From Naegleria gruberi (Eukaryota): 64,000 bases of DNA. Of the stretch, positions 22,881 through 49,905 are shown in pieces; positions within the stretch are counted from its first letter, which is position 1, and each line of letters opens with the position of its first letter. The translations under genes were made by a program, and so were the position numbers. The notes under the pieces are model-generated. The model searched no databases. It saw only the letters and a list, made by a program, of their open reading frames with translations, and had not been told where the DNA came from. Location: NCBI GenBank assembly GCA_000004985.1, contig GG738901.1; one strand, written 5' to 3'.

Positions 22881-22953
22881 CGCCCCACGTGGGGCTCGAA
22901 CCCACGACCGTTGGATTAAAAGTCCAACGCTCTACCGACTGAGCTAGCGGGGC
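22881..22953 (-). tRNA. tRNA-Lys (anticodon UUU)
   Basis: Reverse complement GCCCCGCTAGCTCAGTCGGTAGAGCGTTGGACTTTTAATCCAACGGTCGTGGGTTCGAGCCCCACGTGGGGCG. D arm GCTC/GAGC. Anticodon loop CTTTTAA. T loop TTCGAGC. Acceptor with one G-U pair. TTTTT downstream on the minus strand. Confidence 0.9.
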
Positions 22954-30761: not shown

Positions 30762-33320
30762 ATGTATTCACATAGTAGTAGCAATAATAATAACAATGTT
30801 AATGGGGGTGGTAGTTTGTTTTCTCCGAATAGTGTAGCATCATCAACACCTACAACACCATCTTCTCCTTCCATCATGATGAGTCCACCACCATCATCAT
30901 CACATCATCAACAACACCATCAGCATCACCATAATCATCATCATCTTCACCATTCAACTCTTCCACCATTAAATTCATTTCATAATTATACTGCTGGAGT
31001 GATGCAACATTTTGATGGTTTTCATGGAGGTTCTGCAACCTCTCCTTATGGTTCTCCTTCGTTCTCTCTACCTACAACACCTACATCAAACTATGGCCTT
31101 GGAAATGGTCAATCATCGGTAGGCATTGCATCACCTCTTCCAAATGTATTGCATTCGCCTTCTTCAGTGGGGACATCTCCACAACTCAACAATGGATCGA
31201 ATGTCATGGTCAACAAACCATCAACTTCAGCCTTTGGTAAAGTTTCTACAGCTCCAACCCCTAGTGAAATTGTACCAAATTTTGTCATTGACCAAGTGAG
31301 TAAAATTACGAATAGAGATGAATATGAACCAATCAGTCACGAGAATTTAATGTCAATAAGAAAGAGCAAGATTATTTCACCAAATAATGATATTTCTAAA
31401 AGTAAGAATCAATCTACTTCAGAGGATGAGGACTATGATGATGATGGATCAGATTCTGCACAAAAAACAAAATCCGATAAGAAGAAGTACCACCCTATTG
31501 CCTGTGTGCAGTGCAGGTCTTTACACAAAAAGGTTTGTTTAGTTTCGAATAATGCATTCTAACTCGGAAAAGTGTGACAAGAAATTACCTTCATGCTCAA
31601 AATGTATTTCTAGAGGTGTGGAATGTACAGTATGTAGTTATATTGTTTTGGATTTATTGGAATTTCTAATCAATTGATAATAGTATAATACCCCAAGAAA
31701 GAGAGGAAAAGTCTCTAGAAAGGACACTGATAAAACTGATGTAAATAATGTTAATAACAATACTAATAATAACATGAATGGAAACTCATCCATGAACCAA
31801 TCAGGTATTCCACCTTTTGTGAGGACTGAAAAACCAAATAACCATCTTCCTCCACCATCAGTGATTGATTCATACTTTGCAGTTTTATGTGGTGGCCATC
31901 CAGCCATTGAAAAGAAAAAGCTAGAATATACTGTTCAAAATAATTACTCCTATATTAATGCACTCCTAGTGACGAATGACTACAATGTGAGGTTACCAAT
32001 ACCTGAAGGAGAAAATGCAGAGACAACATTTATTCTTGCCTTTTATTTATCCATTCAAGCTCTGTATGTTTTTTGATAATAATTTTAACAATGTTCAAAC
32101 AATTTTAATTCAGATGTGAACAGCGATATGGGTTGTTGGATCTTGCTGAAGAATCCCACAAGCATGCGGAGAAGGAAGTTGCCAGATTGATAGACCACTT
32201 TACAAACTTTTACATGGTTGCTTGTTATATCAATATGGCACTGTATGAATCAGGTGGTGGAAATTACAAAAAGGCAAGATTTTACTTGAACAATGTGAAT
32301 TTTTACTTTGAGGATGAGGAGAATATGAATAAGGATTTCAACTTTTACGAGCAAAATTTGAAAAAGTTTAGAGTATTTGTTGTTGGATCATGCCATTCGG
32401 ATATTGATAATATTGGATCGTTGGGCACGTTTGTGGAAATGATGCCTCGAATGTTTAAACTGGCTTCTGGAGGACAAGATATGCAACTTCCTCCAGAATG
32501 TTGGCAAGTTTTCAATTCTAGGAACGTCACCCCCGATAATTACATGCTTTTCATGCAAATTATGGATATGGTGTCTAAAGCATTCGAAAAATATAGAGCT
32601 ATCCTTTATGGTATGGCAACGGATTGTCACTCTCCAACATTCTTCAGATTCCAAGATTTACAAAGGGCCTTCATTAACAATGGTATTAGATTTTTACTAT
32701 TGGAGAAGGTTGTCAATGTGGCCTCAAACTTTGCTGAAGAAACCGCTCTGAAAATTACACTTCTCACAGAACATGACCTGTTCCCGTAAGTATTTCACTT
32801 TTACAATCTAATAATCCTCCGAAAATGAAGATATTGTGGACTTGGAGTCATTCTAGGAATAATTAATACTTGTAAATTTCATTTAAACATTGTGAAACAA
32901 ATAGAGAGTGGAATGCGACCAACACATTCAACAATCATTTCATCAGCAACTAATAAGGCAATAACAGTTGACTACTTTTCCATTTTACAGAAGGATTTAA
33001 GAGCATTACAAGTACTTGCAAAGAGATATAAGAGACTAACCCTCTACCACTCTCAAATGATGGATGAAATGGAACAAATCATTAGAAGAAAGCACAATGT
33101 CGATCCATTCCACACAGCTCTTCAAATCCAAACACTCTCCAATATGGCACCACCAGTACAGACAGGAACAGGCACTGATAACCCTAATGATGTTCTCCTA
33201 TCAACCATATTGGGCTATTTGAAGAAGGCAATCGAGAGTAATCAAAATCCACCTCCTTTCGCAGCAAACATGAGTCCTGTAAATGAAACACGTGCTGATT
33301 TTGGTTTTCCATGGGAATAA
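30762..33320 (+). CDS. Transcription factor with fungal-type Zn2Cys6 binuclear cluster and fungal_trans-like middle region; 5 exons join(30762..31532,31573..31629,31684..32063,32114..32785,32831..33320)
   Basis: Exon 1 ends ..IACVQCRSLHKK. 40-nt intron GTTTGT..AAAAG. Exon 2 is CDKKLPSCSKCISRGVECT, completing C-x2-C-x6-C-x6-C-x2-C-x6-C. 54-nt intron GTATGT..AATAG. Exon 3 starts YNTPRKRGKVSRK (basic linker). Further introns are GTATGT..TTCAG (50 nt) and GTAAGT..GAAG (45 nt, weak acceptor). All exon phases match ORFs 30762..31562, 31774..32076, 32133..32789, 32892..33320. Poly-H/Q/N N-terminus. Confidence 0.7.
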
Positions 33321-33476
33321 TGACCTCTCACCCTCAATAAATCCGTGATCAACATGGCTATGTTGTAATGACTACAGTATGGAACATCATGTTGAACATG
33401 TGAAACTGTTCCATCTAGTTCCACAACCAGCAAGATTATCTCTACAGCTCACACAACTTTTACCACATCAAAAAAA

Positions 33477-34499
33477 ATGTCATCCTCATCAGCATCTTCC
33501 GAATCAAAGTTTGCAATTCTAGTCATTGACAGTGAACAAAACAATTGGGATTTGCTCTTCTCCGAGAATAATCTTCTCACCAAATATAATTTAGAAATTG
33601 AACAAACCACGTGGGAGAATATTGCCTCTGTCACCTCCTTCAATGATGGAAATAATAAGAAGAGAGCATGTGAAATATCGTTGAGACCTTGGAAAACAAC
33701 TTGTACATTCAATGATCGTAGGAATAGACAACGAATTTTCCATGCTAATTTTGTATTGGTTAGGAAATTAGTTCAGGGATTGAAAATTGATCAACATAAT
33801 TATGTCAATCACTTGTTGGGAATGATGCATTGTAATTTGCCTTCTATCAATTCATTGCATTCAATTTATTTGAATTTACAAAGACCATTCATTCATGGAA
33901 TTTTATCTGGAATTAGAGATGAGAAGGGAGCTGATAAATTCCCTCTCATTGATCAATATTATCATGGTGAACCAAATTCCATTCTTTTCACACCTTCATC
34001 CTCTGATAAGGTTGTCATTAAAGTTGGAAGTGCAGAAGCTGGATTTGGAAAAGTACTCTTGGATAACAATAATGGAACATTACGTGATTTTGGAGGATGC
34101 ATTACGAGATATAATGATTTTTTCACAAGTGAACCTTTTATTGCCAATAGAAAGTGTGATATCAGATTGCAAAAGATTGGAAAGAATATTAGAGTTTATG
34201 AAAGAGTGAGTTCTAATTGGAAAGGCAATGTTGGAAATTCAATTCTTAAAGAAGTGGAAGTGAAAAAGCATTATAAGGAGTGGATTAAATGGGTTGATGA
34301 AGCTGTCAAGTCCAAAATGGGAAGTCCAATGGAAATTTTCACACTCGATGCCATTCAAGTTGAACCAGAACCTGGCAAGTTTGTAGAATATATTTTGGAG
34401 ATCAATGATTGTGCCAGTGGTCTAGCTCCAGATAATTTACAGGAGGATATTAGAAATATTAGAGATTTGGTAATTTCAAAAATTAGTGATCTCGTTTAA
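33477..34499 (+). CDS. Synapsin-domain (ATP-grasp) protein (340 aa)
   Basis: Colinear similarity to the synapsin C domain (FVLVRK..; LPSINSLHSIYLNLQRPFIHG; KFPLIDQYYHGEPNSI; DKVVIKVGSAEAGFGKVLLDNNNGTLRD; SEPFIANRKCDIRLQKIGKNIRVYER; NWKGNVGNSIL; EYILEINDCASGL). Confidence 0.8.
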   Translation: MSSSSASSESKFAILVIDSEQNNWDLLFSENNLLTKYNLEIEQTTWENIASVTSFNDGNNKKRACEISLRPWKTTCTFNDRRNRQRIFHANFVLVRKLVQGLKIDQHNYVNHLLGMMHCNLPSINSLHSIYLNLQRPFIHGILSGIRDEKGADKFPLIDQYYHGEPNSILFTPSSSDKVVIKVGSAEAGFGKVLLDNNNGTLRDFGGCITRYNDFFTSEPFIANRKCDIRLQKIGKNIRVYERVSSNWKGNVGNSILKEVEVKKHYKEWIKWVDEAVKSKMGSPMEIFTLDAIQVEPEPGKFVEYILEINDCASGLAPDNLQEDIRNIRDLVISKISDLV

Positions 34500-34686: not shown

Positions 34687-35456
34687 TTATTTAGCAATTC
34701 TAGAAGCAGCAGCTGCGTAAGAAGCAATAATTGCAATGATAATAATGGCTGCAACAACAACTGACAAGATATTAAGTCCTAAAGTAATGAAAAATCCAAT
34801 TTGTCCATATTGTCCATATTGTTTAGCTCTTGGATCTGATGAACGACGGAATTTCATAACTGGAACAAAGAAGAAACAACTGAAACAGAATCCAATTCCA
34901 AGGAACCACATGACAAATGTCACTAACAAGGCAAACATTAAAGCTTCTTCAGCTTGTTTGCCTTCTCCAACTGCAGAAACACCATTCACAACAGTTGTAG
35001 TAGTTGTGGTGGCAACAGTTGGTTGAGCTACGATCACAGGTTGTGGAGTGTAGTATTGTGGTTGTGGTTGACCATAAGCTACAGGTACCTGTTGACTTGG
35101 ATCATAGTATGGTTGTTGTGGATATGGTTGACCATAGGCATTTGGTTGAGTTGGTTGACCATAGTATGCTTGTGGTTGTTGTTGATTTGGATCATATTGA
35201 GGAGGAGGTTGAGCATAGGTAGCTTCTTGCTTTACGTTAGGATCCTATCATTATTAGTAGTATTCGAAACATGTAAAATTTCATCACAACATCACGTTTT
35301 GAACATTAGTTTTTAAATGTTGCATGTGTTGTTATTATCCAAACATTATTATCATTTTTGTATGTCATTTCCAAATAGTTTCGGTTAGATTTTAAAGTTT
35401 AGAATAAACATTGTTCATAACAAAATTGCACTACCTACCACTGGTTGTTGATTCAT
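34687..35456 (-). CDS. Small membrane protein with YGQP/PQ-repeat N-terminus and two TM segments; 2 exons join(35456..35439,35229..34687)
   Basis: Exon 1 ATGAATCAACAACCAGTG (MNQQPV). 209-nt intron GTAGGT...GTAAAG. Exon 2 is QEATYAQPPPQYDPNQQQPQAYYGQPTQPNAYGQPYPQQPYYDPSQQVPVAYGQPQPQYY.., then TM1 ALMFALLVTFVMWFLGIGFCFSCFFFVPV, loop MKFRRSSDPRAKQYGQYGQ, TM2 IGFFITLGLNILSVVVAAIIIIAIIA. The ORF-track ORF starts at GTG inside exon 2. Confidence 0.45.
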
Positions 35457-38406: not shown

Positions 38407-39660
38407 ATGGTTCACGTGAACGATTTTTTACTAACAAACATCATCCCTTCAGCTCTAACAAACCTATTCGAAACTTCTTCTCTCACACCGAATGTAACTT
38501 TTATGCAAACTTGTGTGAGATTTGATCCAGCAGGTTTCGAATATGTTGGCTGGGTATGGGATATTTTCGGCGAATGTGTCCACGAACCAAGAGAAATAGC
38601 TTCCTTTGCAGTTGGCATGATTTCCATTGGATTTTGGATGTGTGCTCTCCTGCCACAAGTCATTGCGAATTTCAAAAATAGAGATGCCTCCTCCCTGTCA
38701 ACTGGCTACTTGATACAAATCACTTTGGGTGATGCCTGTTCCATGACAGCTGGTATCATGAGTGGTCAATTGATTACTCAAATTTTATTGAGTGCTTACT
38801 TTGTATTAATGGACGTTGTAATGATTGCTCAATATTTTTGTTTTGTGGTCATTCCAAAAATTTATAGAAAAGTCAAATCGAGGAAAATTCAACCTGAAAA
38901 AAATCAAGAAATTGCAAATTCTCAAAGTGAATTGGTGAATAAGGAGAAGGTTGAGGTAAAATGTGAGAATTCAAAGCAGCAGGAAACAATTTTGAAGAGT
39001 TCGATTTGGATTTCAATTTTGGCAATTTTAGTATTGATTACATTCTTTACAACTTCAACAATGCTTTCGAATAATGTTGAGAATGCACAGAAAATGAATC
39101 AAAAAACAATGAGAAAACTATTGCATGCCATTAATGAAGGACAAGAATACTCAACCACTCAACAAGATCACAACAGTTTCACCTTCCCTCCAAACACTCC
39201 AGTTTCCATTGTTGGTTTCTCATTGGGTTGTTTCTGTGCCATTCTCTACATGGGCAGTAGATTACCTCAAATCTTTTTGAATTTCAGAAGAAAAACATGT
39301 GATGGTCTCTCACCTATTTACTTTGGAATTGGTATTTTAGGAAATGTTTGTTATTGTGTTTCGATTTGGTTGTACTCTTCAGATTCGGCTTATTTAATGA
39401 CACGTATTCCTTGGTTAGTGGAATCGACTGTAAATATATTTTTGGATATTTTCATCATGTGGCAATTTGTGTATTACAATTACTTGTATAAGGGAAAGAA
39501 ACCAGAAAGTAAGGAAGTAAAGAATAAGAAAGTGGAAGAATTGAAAGTTGTTTCTGCCATGAGTACAGTTTCAGATACTTCTCCAAAGGTGAATGCTCCA
39601 ACAAATGATGATTGGTCATCGAGTTCAACTTCTGCGAGTCCAAAGGAACAAATTGTGTAA
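38407..39660 (+). CDS. PQ-loop repeat membrane transporter (PQLC2/Ypq-like lysosomal/vacuolar amino-acid transporter family)
   Basis: Two PQ-loop modules (FAVGMISIGFWMCALLPQVIANFKNRDASSLSTGYL and GFSLGCFCAILYMGSRLPQIFLNFRRKTCDGLSPIYF). Seven predicted TM helices. Hydrophilic K/E-rich central loop and S-rich tail. Confidence 0.85.
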   Translation: MVHVNDFLLTNIIPSALTNLFETSSLTPNVTFMQTCVRFDPAGFEYVGWVWDIFGECVHEPREIASFAVGMISIGFWMCALLPQVIANFKNRDASSLSTGYLIQITLGDACSMTAGIMSGQLITQILLSAYFVLMDVVMIAQYFCFVVIPKIYRKVKSRKIQPEKNQEIANSQSELVNKEKVEVKCENSKQQETILKSSIWISILAILVLITFFTTSTMLSNNVENAQKMNQKTMRKLLHAINEGQEYSTTQQDHNSFTFPPNTPVSIVGFSLGCFCAILYMGSRLPQIFLNFRRKTCDGLSPIYFGIGILGNVCYCVSIWLYSSDSAYLMTRIPWLVESTVNIFLDIFIMWQFVYYNYLYKGKKPESKEVKNKKVEELKVVSAMSTVSDTSPKVNAPTNDDWSSSSTSASPKEQIV

Positions 39661-44047: not shown

Positions 44048-44180
44048 TTTCCAAGATATTAAGGCTTTCGTCACGCTTATTGTGCGCCTTCCTAGCTCAG
44101 TTGGCAGTAGCGCTGTCCTAGTAAGACAGAGGTCTTGGGTTCGATTCCCAAGGGAGGCATTTTGCCTTAATTCTAACACA
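44048..44180 (+). repeat. About 130-bp duplicated segment (copy 1) comprising tRNA-Thr plus about 38 bp 5' flank and about 20 bp 3' flank
   Basis: tttccaagatattaaggctttcGTCACgcttattgtgcgcc[tRNA]ttttgccttaatt recurs at 49775..49905 with only 3 substitutions in the 5' flank. Confidence 0.85.
44086..44159 (+). tRNA. tRNA-Thr (anticodon AGU), copy 1
   Basis: GCCTTCC acceptor pairing with GGGAGGC (one G-U). Anticodon stem CTGTC/GACAG with loop CTAGTAA. T arm TTGGG-TTCGATT-CCCAA. Discriminator A. TTTT downstream. Confidence 0.9.
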
Positions 44181-49774: not shown

Positions 49775-49905
49775 TTCCAAGATATTAAGGCTTTCTAAAC
49801 GCTTATTGTGCGCCTTCCTAGCTCAGTTGGCAGTAGCGCTGTCCTAGTAAGACAGAGGTCTTGGGTTCGATTCCCAAGGGAGGCATTTTGCCTTAATTTC
49901 TTAAC
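49775..49905 (+). repeat. Duplicated tRNA-Thr segment, copy 2
   Basis: See copy 1. The variant pentamer is TAAAC instead of GTCAC in the 5' flank. Confidence 0.85.
49812..49885 (+). tRNA. tRNA-Thr (anticodon AGU), copy 2 (identical to copy 1)
   Basis: Sequence identical to 44086..44159. Same TTTT terminator. Confidence 0.9.

What the first reader, a model, noticed from the sequence alone, without database searches (positions are those of the whole stretch)
33477..34499. Synapsin-domain ATP-grasp protein in a non-metazoan genome
The 340-aa protein aligns colinearly with the conserved C domain of animal synapsins. This includes the ATP-grasp core (VVIKVGSAEAGFGKV, EPFIANRKCDIRLQKIGKNIRVYER, NWKGNVGNS, EYILEINDCASGL). 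It lacks the A/B and proline-rich D/E regions that mediate vesicle and SH3 interactions. Synapsins are usually discussed as metazoan synaptic-vesicle proteins. A stand-alone C-domain homologue in an amoeboid or fungal-type genome points to the ancestral enzymatic ATP-grasp function.
Basis: partly seen in the sequence, partly recalled or inferred. Interest (0 to 1): 0.55.

Follow-up and report, generated by a model that had tools for sequence, protein, structure and literature searches.

The report
Second synapsin-like ATP-grasp gene in Naegleria
This is a real, intact gene of the amoeboflagellate Naegleria gruberi encoding a stand-alone relative of the core domain of animal synapsins; such protist relatives have been known since 2010, but this copy is a second, unreported paralogue that keeps every residue an active ATP-grasp enzyme needs.

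Summary
ORF 33477-34499(+) encodes a 340-aa protein that matches both Pfam halves of synapsin domain C (116.5 and 50.4 bits) and no other ATP-grasp family. It aligns end to end with the rat synapsin II C-domain crystal sequence (E=1e-41). Its predicted fold matches synapsin structures (TM 0.88-0.90) far better than RimK, GshB or Ddl. The window is Naegleria gruberi (Heterolobosea), not an amoebozoan or fungus.

The idea is not new. Candiani et al. 2010 reported single-C-domain synapsin-like proteins in N. gruberi and Entamoeba, and Entamoeba, Pelomyxa, Thecamonas and Acrasis proteins are annotated as synapsin. However, the published Naegleria sequence is a different gene, 34% identical. This one is buried in a 797-aa NCBI "predicted protein" that I show to be a chimeric model.

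In a rough tree, animal synapsins form one clade and this protein sits in a separate heterolobosean clade. It keeps the complete ATP/metal set (K182, R230, D291, E308-x-N310), as do 112 of 115 stand-alone relatives, against 4 of 39 animal-type synapsins. That favours, but does not prove, an active ligase ancestry. Verdict: new member of a known kind, modest interest.

The parts
33477..34499 (+). Complete single-exon CDS (340 aa plus stop) of the Naegleria gruberi synapsin-like ATP-grasp protein, paralogue A (C-terminal part of NAEGRDRAFT_52582)
   Evidence: ORF listing. It is 340/340 identical to the C-terminus of XP_002671975.1. The nearest in-frame upstream stop lies 27 codons before the ATG, and 33477 is the first ATG after it.
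33504..33845 (+). Pre-ATP-grasp N-terminal subdomain of synapsin domain C (aa 10-123; Pfam PF02078)
   Evidence: Pfam hit, 50.4 bits against a cut-off of 23, profile 4-103 of 103.
33849..34487 (+). ATP-grasp ATP-binding part of synapsin domain C (aa 125-337; Pfam PF02750)
   Evidence: Pfam hit, 116.5 bits against a cut-off of 22.5, profile 1-202 of 203. The AF2 model has pLDDT 84 and pTM 0.83. Foldseek gives TMt 0.88-0.90 to 1i7l, 1pk8, 2p0a and 1auv.
34011..34055 (+). Phosphate-binding strand and Gly-rich loop VVIKVGSAEAGFGKV (aa 179-193), with K182 and K192
   Evidence: K182 is found in 164 of 164 aligned relatives and K192 in 162 of 163. K182 aligns with the VVK lysine of RimK. By my own counting on synapsin I sequences it corresponds to K269 of rat synapsin I.
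34131..34241 (+). Hinge Glu (E219), C-D228-I-R230-L-Q232 motif and the W248-K249-x-N251 loop (equivalent to the synapsin 'multifunctional loop')
   Evidence: These residues are invariant or nearly invariant across relatives. CDIR aligns with CDIR of RimK, and WKGN with FRSN. The loop aligns with GNWKTNTGSA of rat synapsin II.
34347..34349 (+). D291, first acidic metal ligand (equivalent to Glu373 of synapsin I and Lys374 of synapsin II)
   Evidence: The alignment places TLDAI opposite AVKAV. Glu373 is a Ca2+ ligand in synapsin I (PMC9678998). D291 aligns with the GVD Asp of RimK. It is D in 114 of 115 stand-alone relatives but E or K in most animal-type synapsins.
34398..34406 (+). E308-I-N310, the canonical ATP-grasp E-x-N metal-binding motif (E308 is equivalent to Glu386 of synapsin I)
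   Evidence: It aligns with MEVN of RimK. N310 is retained in 113 of 115 stand-alone relatives but in only 15 of 39 animal-type synapsins, where it is M, V, I, E or S.
32786..32830 (+). NOT part of the gene. A 45-nt GTAAGT..AG intron of the upstream gene, which fixes the boundary between the two genes
   Evidence: Splicing 32785|32831 gives a gapless colinear junction with the N. gruberi paralogue P0190: 172 bits with 22 gaps, against 145 bits with 50 gaps for a 123-nt alternative.
32831..33320 (+). NOT part of the gene. The true last exon and stop of the upstream gene. The NCBI model splices this exon out with a 633-nt intron to fuse the two genes
   Evidence: DYFSILQKDLRALQVLAKRYKRLT aligns with DYFSILEKDLRALNLLAARYRRIT of P0190, a 426-aa protein without a synapsin domain. 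In-frame stops follow at 33318-33323.

Best explanation
ORF 33477-34499 is an intact, stand-alone, intron-less gene of Naegleria gruberi. It encodes a member of the synapsin domain-C family of ATP-grasp proteins: a pre-ATP-grasp subdomain plus an ATP-binding subdomain, with none of the animal-specific A, B, D or E regions. It belongs to a heterolobosean lineage of the family, with Willaertia and Acrasis, that is separate both from the animal synapsin clade and from the other N. gruberi paralogue published in 2010. Shown: the family membership, the fold, the gene boundaries, and the conservation of every residue that ATP-grasp enzymes use to hold ATP and two divalent cations (K182, K192, E219, D228/R230, K249/N251, D291, E308, N310). 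Inferred: the protein binds Mg-ATP in the cleft between its subdomains. Because it keeps the full catalytic metal triad that animal synapsins have degraded, it most likely still works as an ATP-dependent carboxylate-amine (peptide- or protein-modifying) ligase of unknown substrate, forming an acyl-phosphate intermediate as RimK, GshB and Ddl do. On this reading animal synapsins are a non-catalytic derivative that gained phosphorylation and disordered regions.
For: Family membership and fold. Organism and identity. Stand-alone gene: the Willaertia orthologue is a 365-aa eukaryote-style model whose upstream neighbour is on the opposite strand; the Acrasis 'Syn2' protein is 362 aa; the upstream gene's true last exon is identified through its paralogue. 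Active-site set: a profile-profile alignment with E. coli RimK (sequence verified 100% against PDB 5zct) pairs VVK, CDIR, FRSN, GVD and MEVN with K182, CDIR228-230, WKGN, D291 and E308-x-N310 (probability 81%). In 36 diverse stand-alone relatives K182, K192, E219, R230, W248, K249, D291, E308 and N310 are invariant. The complete set is kept in 112 of 115 stand-alone or protist-type sequences, against 4 of 39 animal-type synapsins, in which N310 becomes M/V, D291 becomes E/K or R230 becomes H. The closest non-synapsin structures are all active peptide or protein ligases: MdnB/C, PsnB, PruB, RimK, Ddl, GshB. Tree: the animal clade has 100% bootstrap support and the heterolobosean clade 100%.
Against: No enzymatic activity has been shown for any member of the synapsin family. 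Synapsin is cited as an ATP-grasp protein 'without an apparent enzymatic activity' (PMC3249071). Retention of the metal triad is also what tight Mg-ATP binding alone would need, so it does not prove catalysis, and no substrate-binding residues can be named. The 112/115 versus 4/39 contrast rests on an ad hoc class boundary (at least 45% identity to five named animal sequences). It includes several near-identical mammalian synapsin-2 entries, and most sequences are unnamed metagenome proteins. No expression data for this gene were found. The RimK alignment covers only the C-terminal ~150 columns, at 81% probability.
Confidence: 0.5

Rival explanations
1. Non-catalytic, ATP-regulated oligomeric scaffold. 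Like domain C of animal synapsins, the protein binds ATP plus a divalent cation to switch between dimer and tetramer, and it tethers vesicles or cytoskeleton in the amoeba. No ligation chemistry is involved. On this reading the ancestral function of the family was already structural or regulatory.
For: The only experimentally characterised members, animal synapsins, bind ATP without known catalysis, and ATP/Ca2+ control their oligomerisation (PMC9678998; PMC3249071). The whole C-domain fold, including the multifunctional loop, is conserved. The Entamoeba homologue is linked by co-expression and text mining to Rab and Sec1 trafficking proteins in STRING-based tables (weak evidence).
Against: Vertebrate synapsins still bind ATP after losing the E-x-N Asn and changing the first acidic ligand. 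The near-absolute retention of these residues in stand-alone forms (112 of 115) therefore suggests a stricter requirement than ATP binding. The regions that mediate vesicle, SH3 and condensate interactions in animals (A, B, D, E) are absent.
Confidence: 0.38
2. The synapsin-like domain is the C-terminal part of a 797-aa multidomain protein, as in the public model XP_002671975.1, and is not a stand-alone protein.
For: NCBI/JGI model NAEGRDRAFT_52582 joins 32785 to 33419 through a GT..AG intron of 633 nt, in frame.
Against: That intron removes a 142-aa open frame that is clearly homologous to the C-terminal part of the upstream gene's paralogue P0190, which has no synapsin domain. A 45-nt intron restores perfect colinearity. 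The upstream protein then ends at stops at 33318-33323, and further in-frame stops precede the ATG. The Willaertia and Acrasis orthologues are 362-365 aa, and the upstream neighbour of the Willaertia gene is on the opposite strand.
Confidence: 0.04
3. The gene is animal contamination or a recent horizontal transfer of an animal synapsin fragment into the assembly.
For: The distribution among eukaryotes is patchy. None was found in the choanoflagellates, filastereans or fungi sampled by others (PMC7934909; PMC2825198).
Against: The protein is only 28-33% identical to animal synapsins. It sits in a 100%-supported clade with Willaertia, Acrasis and environmental sequences, outside the 100%-supported animal clade. 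Local GC content (0.33-0.36) is the same as the rest of the window. The flanking genes are Naegleria genes.
Confidence: 0.01
4. It is a member of another ATP-grasp family (RimK, glutathione synthetase or D-Ala-D-Ala ligase type) that merely resembles synapsin. IMG labels some relatives 'glutathione synthase/RimK-type ligase-like ATP-grasp enzyme'.
For: IMG automatic names for P0015, P0016 and P0043. There is remote profile similarity to RimK.
Against: No Pfam or NCBIfam family other than the synapsin families hits at E<1. Foldseek E-values for RimK, GshB and Ddl are about 17 orders of magnitude weaker than for synapsin structures. The IMG-labelled proteins lie on eukaryotic contigs and carry the synapsin Pfam domains.
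Confidence: 0.01

Closest known systems
Animal synapsins I/II/III, domain C (PDB 1i7l, 1pk8, 1auv, 2p0a)
   Same: The match is full-length and colinear over both subdomains of domain C (E=1e-41; about 31% identity). The predicted fold is the same (TMt 0.88-0.90). The shared elements are the ATP-binding Lys, the Gly-rich loop, the hinge Glu, the DxR motif, the WKxN 'multifunctional loop', and the Glu equivalent to Ca2+ ligand Glu386.
   Different: There is no domain A (PF10581, the PKA/CaMK site), no B linker and no proline-rich D/E regions. The protein keeps Asp and Asn at the metal-ligand positions where vertebrate synapsins have Glu/Lys and Val/Met. It lies outside the animal clade in the tree. 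The organism has no neurons or synaptic vesicles.
Naegleria gruberi 'NaegleriaSyn' of Candiani et al. 2010 (JGI scaffold_19:385514-386710, 320 aa) and Entamoeba histolytica EHI_127220 / XP_652171 'Synapsin, putative'
   Same: They share the stand-alone single-C-domain architecture in a protist, the same Pfam families and the same intact E-x-N motif.
   Different: The window protein is a different gene, only 34% identical to the published Naegleria sequence. The two fall in different well-supported clades. This paralogue is labelled only 'predicted protein' and is hidden in a chimeric 797-aa model.
Heterolobosean orthologues: Willaertia magna ABK040_005737 (365 aa, 58% identity) and Acrasis kona 'Syn2' (362 aa, 46% identity)
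   Same: They are direct orthologues (100% bootstrap clade) with the same length class and the same complete active-site signature.
   Different: Their N-terminal tails are slightly longer (25-40 aa before the first strand, against 12 aa here). The Willaertia gene model spans more DNA than its CDS needs (1205 nt for 365 aa plus stop), implying about 107 nt of intron; the Naegleria gene has none.
RimK / glutathione synthetase / D-Ala-D-Ala ligase / RiPP macrocyclases (MdnC, PsnB): catalytically active ATP-grasp ligases
   Same: The overall three-subdomain ATP-grasp fold is shared (Foldseek E 1e-11 to 1e-9). All canonical ATP- and Mg-binding residues align in register with RimK.
   Different: Sequence identity is only 9-14% and there is no Pfam or NCBIfam membership. 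The substrate is unknown and no activity has been demonstrated for any protein of the synapsin family.

Membership tests
Synapsin domain-C family (Pfam PF02078 + PF02750) | Score above the curated gathering threshold for Synapsin_C (ATP-binding part) | tested here: met
   116.5 bits against a cut-off of 22.5, E=1.5e-33, profile 1-202 of 203.
Synapsin domain-C family (Pfam PF02078 + PF02750) | Score above the gathering threshold for Synapsin (N-terminal pre-ATP-grasp part of domain C), in the correct order | tested here: met
   50.4 bits against a cut-off of 23; aa 10-123 come immediately before aa 125-337.
Synapsin domain-C family (Pfam PF02078 + PF02750) | Fold closer to solved synapsin C domains than to any other ATP-grasp protein | tested here: met
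   The top 15 Foldseek PDB hits are all synapsin chains (E 4.7e-28 to 6.3e-22, TMt 0.88-0.90). The best non-synapsin hit has E=6.5e-12 and TMt 0.64.
Synapsin domain-C family (Pfam PF02078 + PF02750) | Conserved ATP-site residues of synapsin (Lys of VVVK, Gly-rich loop, hinge Glu, WKxN loop, Glu386 equivalent) | tested here: met
   K182, G189/G191/K192, E219, W248/K249/N251 and E308 are all present and nearly invariant family-wide.
Animal synapsins proper (synaptic-vesicle phosphoproteins) | N-terminal domain A with the PKA/CaMKI phosphorylation site (Pfam PF10581) | tested here: not met
   No PF10581 hit, whereas vertebrate synapsins carry it. Only 12 Ser-rich residues precede domain C.
Animal synapsins proper (synaptic-vesicle phosphoproteins) | Proline-rich or disordered C-terminal regions (D and related) and conserved domain E | tested here: not met
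   The protein ends at residue 340, three residues after the end of the Synapsin_C match. Animal-type relatives have a median length of 539 aa.
Animal synapsins proper (synaptic-vesicle phosphoproteins) | Phylogenetic placement inside the metazoan synapsin clade | tested here: not met
   NJ tree with 300 bootstraps: the metazoan clade has 100% support and excludes it. The protein lies in a heterolobosean clade with 100% support. The method is simple and the deep nodes are unresolved.
Animal synapsins proper (synaptic-vesicle phosphoproteins) | Association with synaptic vesicles and neuronal expression | not testable with these tools
   Naegleria is unicellular, and no localisation or expression data were found.
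Catalytically active ATP-grasp carboxylate-amine ligases (RimK/GshB/Ddl type) | Two-metal-binding triad: acidic residue ... E-x-N | tested here: met
   D291, E308 and N310 align with the GVD and MEVN motifs of RimK. They are invariant in 36 diverse stand-alone relatives.
Catalytically active ATP-grasp carboxylate-amine ligases (RimK/GshB/Ddl type) | Phosphate-binding Lys and the Arg of the D-x-R motif | tested here: met
   K182 pairs with the VVK lysine of RimK, and C-D-I-R230 with C-D-I-R of RimK.
Catalytically active ATP-grasp carboxylate-amine ligases (RimK/GshB/Ddl type) | Sequence-profile membership in a named ligase family (RimK, GSH-S_ATP, Dala_Dala_lig_C and similar) | tested here: not met
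   No such Pfam or NCBIfam hit at E<1.
Catalytically active ATP-grasp carboxylate-amine ligases (RimK/GshB/Ddl type) | Demonstrated ATP-dependent ligation of a defined substrate | not testable with these tools
   This needs biochemistry. No activity is reported for any synapsin-family protein (PMC3249071).

The most novel reading that the evidence does not exclude
Stand-alone synapsin-like proteins form an ancient eukaryotic family of still-active ATP-grasp ligases. At least two paralogous lineages are shared between Discoba and Amorphea, which would date the family to near the last eukaryotic common ancestor. Their substrate, perhaps a protein or peptide carboxylate, is unknown. Animal synapsins would then be a pseudo-enzyme offshoot that lost the catalytic metal ligands while gaining phospho-regulated and disordered regions. 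The Naegleria paralogue in this window would be a tractable entry point for finding the original reaction.
Probability: 0.4. Interest if true: 0.6.

Novelty: new member of a known kind. Interest (0 to 1): 0.3.

Why it matters
Synapsin is still listed in synapse-evolution surveys as animal-only within opisthokonts (PMC7934909), and its ATP-grasp fold has never been tied to a reaction. Protist homologues are known, so their mere presence is not news. Two points from this analysis are useful. First, Naegleria gruberi carries two deeply divergent synapsin-like paralogues, and the one here has been masked by a chimeric public gene model that should be corrected. Second, stand-alone homologues keep the full catalytic metal-binding set almost without exception, while animal synapsins have almost always lost at least one element. 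This turns the old question of whether the synapsin ancestor was an enzyme into a direct experiment on a small, soluble, intron-less protist protein.

Tried and rejected
1. NCBIfam scan gave no hits. This is expected, because the library targets prokaryotes.
2. A regex-based motif census was too crude. I replaced it with hmmalign-based column counts.
3. I suspected bacterial or viral members, because IMG names P0015, P0016 and P0043 'glutathione synthase/RimK-type ligase-like' and P0008 comes from a MAG-style assembly. All three long contigs carry eukaryotic gene content. The BFVD viral fold library holds only generic ATP-grasp folds. This lead is rejected.
4. The profile search in the word-indexed database was capped at 8000 candidates and returned mostly mammalian synapsins. 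It was useful only for reference sequences.
5. Cluster look-ups named only about a third of the clade representatives, so many tree tips remain anonymous.
7. Literature searches for the locus tag and accessions found nothing. A loose multi-term search was uninformative.
8. My first splice model for the upstream gene, a 123-nt intron, was superseded by a 45-nt intron after comparison with the paralogue.
9. Pfam scans of neighbouring ORFs gave no functional link. This is a eukaryotic genome, so none was expected.
10. I initially filed the finding as 'already published' on the basis of Candiani 2010. Reading the supplement showed that their sequence is a different paralogue.
Full report
**1. The observation**

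All four quoted motifs are present, at aa 179-193, 219-243, 247-255 and 304-316.

The similarity to synapsin is not a chance resemblance:
- Pfam gives Synapsin_C at 116.5 bits (cut-off 22.5, E=1.5e-33, profile positions 1-202 of 203).
- Pfam gives Synapsin, which is the N-terminal half of domain C, at 50.4 bits (cut-off 23).
- No other family scores at E<1, and NCBIfam gives nothing.
- phmmer against all PDB chains returns only synapsins. Rat synapsin II C domain (1i7l) scores E=9.6e-42 with query 13-339 aligned to chain 4-306 of 309. Synapsin III and synapsin I follow at about 1e-35.

**2. The organism**

The ORF is 340/340 identical to the C-terminal part of Naegleria gruberi XP_002671975.1 / EFC39231.1 / D2VVG1 (NAEGRDRAFT_52582). 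The window is therefore N. gruberi, a heterolobosean amoeboflagellate (Discoba), not an amoebozoan or a fungus. GC content is even across the window at 0.31-0.39. The closest named orthologues are Willaertia magna (58% identity, 365 aa) and Acrasis kona 'Syn2' (46% identity, 362 aa).

**3. Whether the protein is really stand-alone**

The public model says no: it is a 797-aa 'predicted protein' whose last 340 residues are this ORF. That model joins 32785 to 33419 through a 633-nt GT..AG intron. In doing so it removes a 142-aa open frame at 32892-33320.

I searched with the upstream protein including that frame. The only hit was an N. gruberi paralogue, P0190 (426 aa, no synapsin domain). Its alignment runs straight across the junction and into the frame: DYFSILQKDLRALQVLAKRYKRLT pairs with DYFSILEKDLRALNLLAARYRRIT.

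A 45-nt GTAAGT..AG intron (32786-32830) gives a gapless colinear junction. It scores 172 bits with 22 gaps, against 145 bits with 50 gaps for a 123-nt alternative. The upstream gene therefore ends at the stop at 33318-33320. Several in-frame stops follow it, and the first ATG after the last of them is 33477.

The Willaertia orthologue is a eukaryote-style model of 365 aa whose upstream neighbour lies on the opposite strand. The separate ORF calls on metagenome contig L001 are not independent evidence, because such gene callers do not splice.

Conclusion: the NCBI model is chimeric, the synapsin-like gene stands alone, and 156 nt of intergenic DNA separate it from the upstream gene.

**4. Structure**

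An AlphaFold2 model built on a 13-sequence alignment is confident, with mean pLDDT 84.2 and pTM 0.83. In a Foldseek search of the PDB, the first 15 hits are all synapsin C-domain chains (E 4.7e-28 to 6.3e-22, TMt 0.88-0.90). After that come AMdnB, PruB, PsnB, RimK, Ddl, MdnC and GshB, at E 6.5e-12 and weaker with TMt at or below 0.66. That test fails clearly.

**5. What is absent**

Domain A (PF10581) is precomputed for vertebrate synapsins and does not hit this protein. Only 12 Ser-rich residues precede the first strand, and the protein ends three residues after the Synapsin_C match. It has no B, D or E regions.

**6. How widespread the family is and what is already known**

An exhaustive phmmer search of 1.84 billion representatives found 647 relatives at E<=1e-3 and 90 at E<=1e-30. 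Most are 330-450 aa. Named non-animal members are:
- Planoprotostelium fungivorum.
- Pelomyxa schiedti 'synapsin II', Physarum polycephalum, and Thecamonas trahens 'synapsin-3' plus a 1774-aa 'synapsin short isoform'.
- Arcella intermedia.
- Entamoeba histolytica EHI_127220 'Synapsin, putative'.

Three long metagenome contigs that carry members all have eukaryotic gene content. The viral structure library contains only generic ATP-grasp folds. I therefore saw no prokaryotic or viral members.

In the literature, Candiani et al. 2010 (PMC2825198) explicitly reported single-C-domain synapsin-related proteins in N. gruberi and E. histolytica. Göhde et al. 2021 found synapsin only in animals among 13 opisthokont species. 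Galperin and Koonin 2012 list synapsin as an ATP-grasp protein without apparent enzymatic activity. The kind of protein is therefore known.

**7. This is not the published Naegleria gene**

The sequence in Candiani's supplement is from JGI scaffold_19:385514-386710, 320 aa, beginning MSSIIDYNQSDQSNWYKLF. It is only 34% identical to the window protein. Within the window it matches nothing except this ORF, as a cross-hit. Its closest relative among the fetched proteins is P0043, at 60% identity.

I built an NJ tree of 39 sequences over 301 columns with 300 bootstraps:

| Grouping | Bootstrap support |
|---|---|
| All animal synapsins (single clade) | 100% |
| Window protein + Willaertia | 100% |
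| The above + Acrasis + three environmental sequences | 100% |
| The above + Planoprotostelium and two further environmental sequences | 83% |
| Published Naegleria paralogue + P0043, elsewhere in the tree near a Thecamonas-3/Arcella clade | 100% |
| Entamoeba + env9, env11 and env51, in a third place | 95% |

N. gruberi therefore has at least two deeply divergent paralogues. No paper naming this one was found. The tree uses simple distances and midpoint rooting, and the deep nodes are unresolved. It rules out animal contamination or recent transfer from animals, but it does not settle ancient paralogy against lateral transfer.

**8. Active-site anatomy**

By the alignment, D291 and E308 correspond to the residues that in rat synapsin I are Glu373 and Glu386. 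These are the Ca2+ ligands next to ATP (PMC9678998). My counting on synapsin I sequences reproduces the 13-residue spacing AVE...IIE.

To relate these residues to active enzymes, I aligned the family profile to E. coli RimK. I had recalled the RimK sequence from memory, and it proved 100% identical to PDB 5zct_A. hhalign (probability 81%, E=1.3e-5) gives these pairings:

| RimK element | Naegleria counterpart |
|---|---|
| VVK | VVIK182 |
| CDIRC | CD228-I-R230-L |
| FRSN | W248-K249-G-N251 |
| GVDIL | TLD291AI |
| MEVNASPGL | LE308-I-N310-DCASGL |

From established knowledge of ATP-grasp enzymes, the acidic residue plus E-x-N bind the two Mg2+ ions, and the Lys and Arg hold the phosphates. 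The Naegleria protein has the whole set.

Across 36 diverse stand-alone relatives, K182, K192, E219, R230, W248, K249, D291, E308 and N310 are invariant.

I ran a census on all fetched sequences that are aligned at every signature position:

| Class | Median length | Complete K182/R230/[D/E]291/E308/N310 set |
|---|---|---|
| Stand-alone / protist-type | 363 aa | 112 of 115 |
| Animal-type | 539 aa | 4 of 39 |

Three of the four complete animal-type sequences are short forms sitting on my class boundary. Vertebrate-type sequences show N310 replaced by M, V, L, S or E, and D291 replaced by E or K. Another long group, which includes the tardigrade, shows R230 replaced by H.

Caveats: the class boundary (at least 45% identity to five named animal sequences) is ad hoc. 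Several mammalian synapsin-2 entries are near-duplicates. Most sequences are anonymous.

**9. Mechanism**

Shown: the family, the fold, the gene boundaries, and an intact ATP/metal site.

Inferred: the protein binds Mg-ATP. Vertebrate synapsins still bind ATP without the Asn, so the near-absolute retention of the triad in stand-alone forms suggests a need beyond nucleotide binding. I therefore rate 'still an active carboxylate-amine ligase of unknown substrate' as the most likely mechanism (about 0.5). The main rival is 'non-catalytic ATP-switched oligomeric scaffold, as in animals' (about 0.38). The structurally nearest non-synapsin proteins are peptide- and protein-modifying ligases, which hints at the substrate class but is not evidence. 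Nothing in the neighbouring genes helps, as expected for a eukaryote.

**10. Verdict**

The organism needs correcting, and the claim is not novel as a category. What is new is modest: an unreported second Naegleria paralogue, a chimeric public gene model, and a quantified contrast in active-site retention that makes the 'ancestral enzyme' idea testable. Novelty: new member of a known kind. Interest: 0.3.

Noticed in passing
window 32133-34499 (+): The public model XP_002671975.1 / NAEGRDRAFT_52582 (797 aa) appears to be a chimera of two genes. It splices out the true last exon of the upstream gene (32831-33320) with a 633-nt intron. A 45-nt GTAAGT..AG intron (32786-32830) restores colinearity with the paralogue P0190.
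   Followed up: yes
not in window; JGI N. gruberi scaffold_19:385514-386710 (Candiani 2010 supplement): N. gruberi has a second synapsin-like paralogue (320 aa), 34% identical to the window protein and in a different clade. It is 60% identical to environmental protein P0043 on the eukaryotic contig L004.
   Followed up: partly
window ~31000-33320 (+) and protein P0190: The upstream gene belongs to a Naegleria family with no significant Pfam match (only a sub-threshold Eapp_C hit, E=0.017). It has a His/Gln-rich N-terminus and at least one N. gruberi paralogue (P0190, 426 aa, 31-34% identity). Function unknown.
   Followed up: partly
L001 1114-2142 versus window 33477-33520: An ENA metagenome contig (ERZ929261) carries a 99%-identical gene with two extra Ser residues in the N-terminal Ser run (SSSSASSSSESKF against SSSSASSESKF). 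This looks like a length polymorphism in a very close Naegleria strain found in an environmental sample.
   Followed up: no
L003 7235-8448: A 17-kb contig of assembly GCA_016850925.1 carries clearly eukaryotic genes (F-box, UCH, eRF1, zf-MYND, rhomboid). Its synapsin-like gene is split into two ORFs by prokaryote-style gene calling, and IMG names it 'glutathione synthase/RimK-type ligase-like'. It is probably a heterolobosean-like contig mis-binned into a prokaryotic MAG.
   Followed up: partly
protein P0144 (Thecamonas trahens XP_013755335.1, 1774 aa), residues ~1404-1628: The apusomonad Thecamonas has, besides a 388-aa stand-alone 'synapsin-3', a 1774-aa protein with the synapsin ATP-grasp domain near its C-terminus and an intact active-site signature. 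This may be a multidomain architecture or another fused gene model.
   Followed up: no
proteins P0066, P0069, P0070, P0084, P0098, P0134, P0139, P0179: A group of long animal-type synapsins, including the tardigrade Ramazzottius, replaces the Arg of the D-x-R motif with His but keeps the E-x-N Asn. Vertebrate synapsins do the opposite. The two branches of animals seem to have degraded the site in different ways.
   Followed up: partly
window 2384-2464, 22881-22953, 44086-44159, 49812-49885: Four tRNA genes lie in the window (Ser-AGA, Lys-TTT, and two Thr-AGT copies about 5.7 kb apart on the same strand).
   Followed up: no
window 34687-35037 (-): Immediately downstream on the opposite strand is a 116-aa ORF with a Thr run and hydrophobic stretches, suggesting a small membrane protein. 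The only Pfam hit is sub-threshold (KCH, E=0.036). It overlaps repetitive ORFs on the + strand, so its coding status is uncertain.
   Followed up: no
window 38407-39660 (+): A 417-aa ORF carrying PQ-loop repeats (PF04193, E=1.1e-23). It is an ordinary lysosomal/vacuolar transporter-type protein, unrelated to the finding.
   Followed up: no
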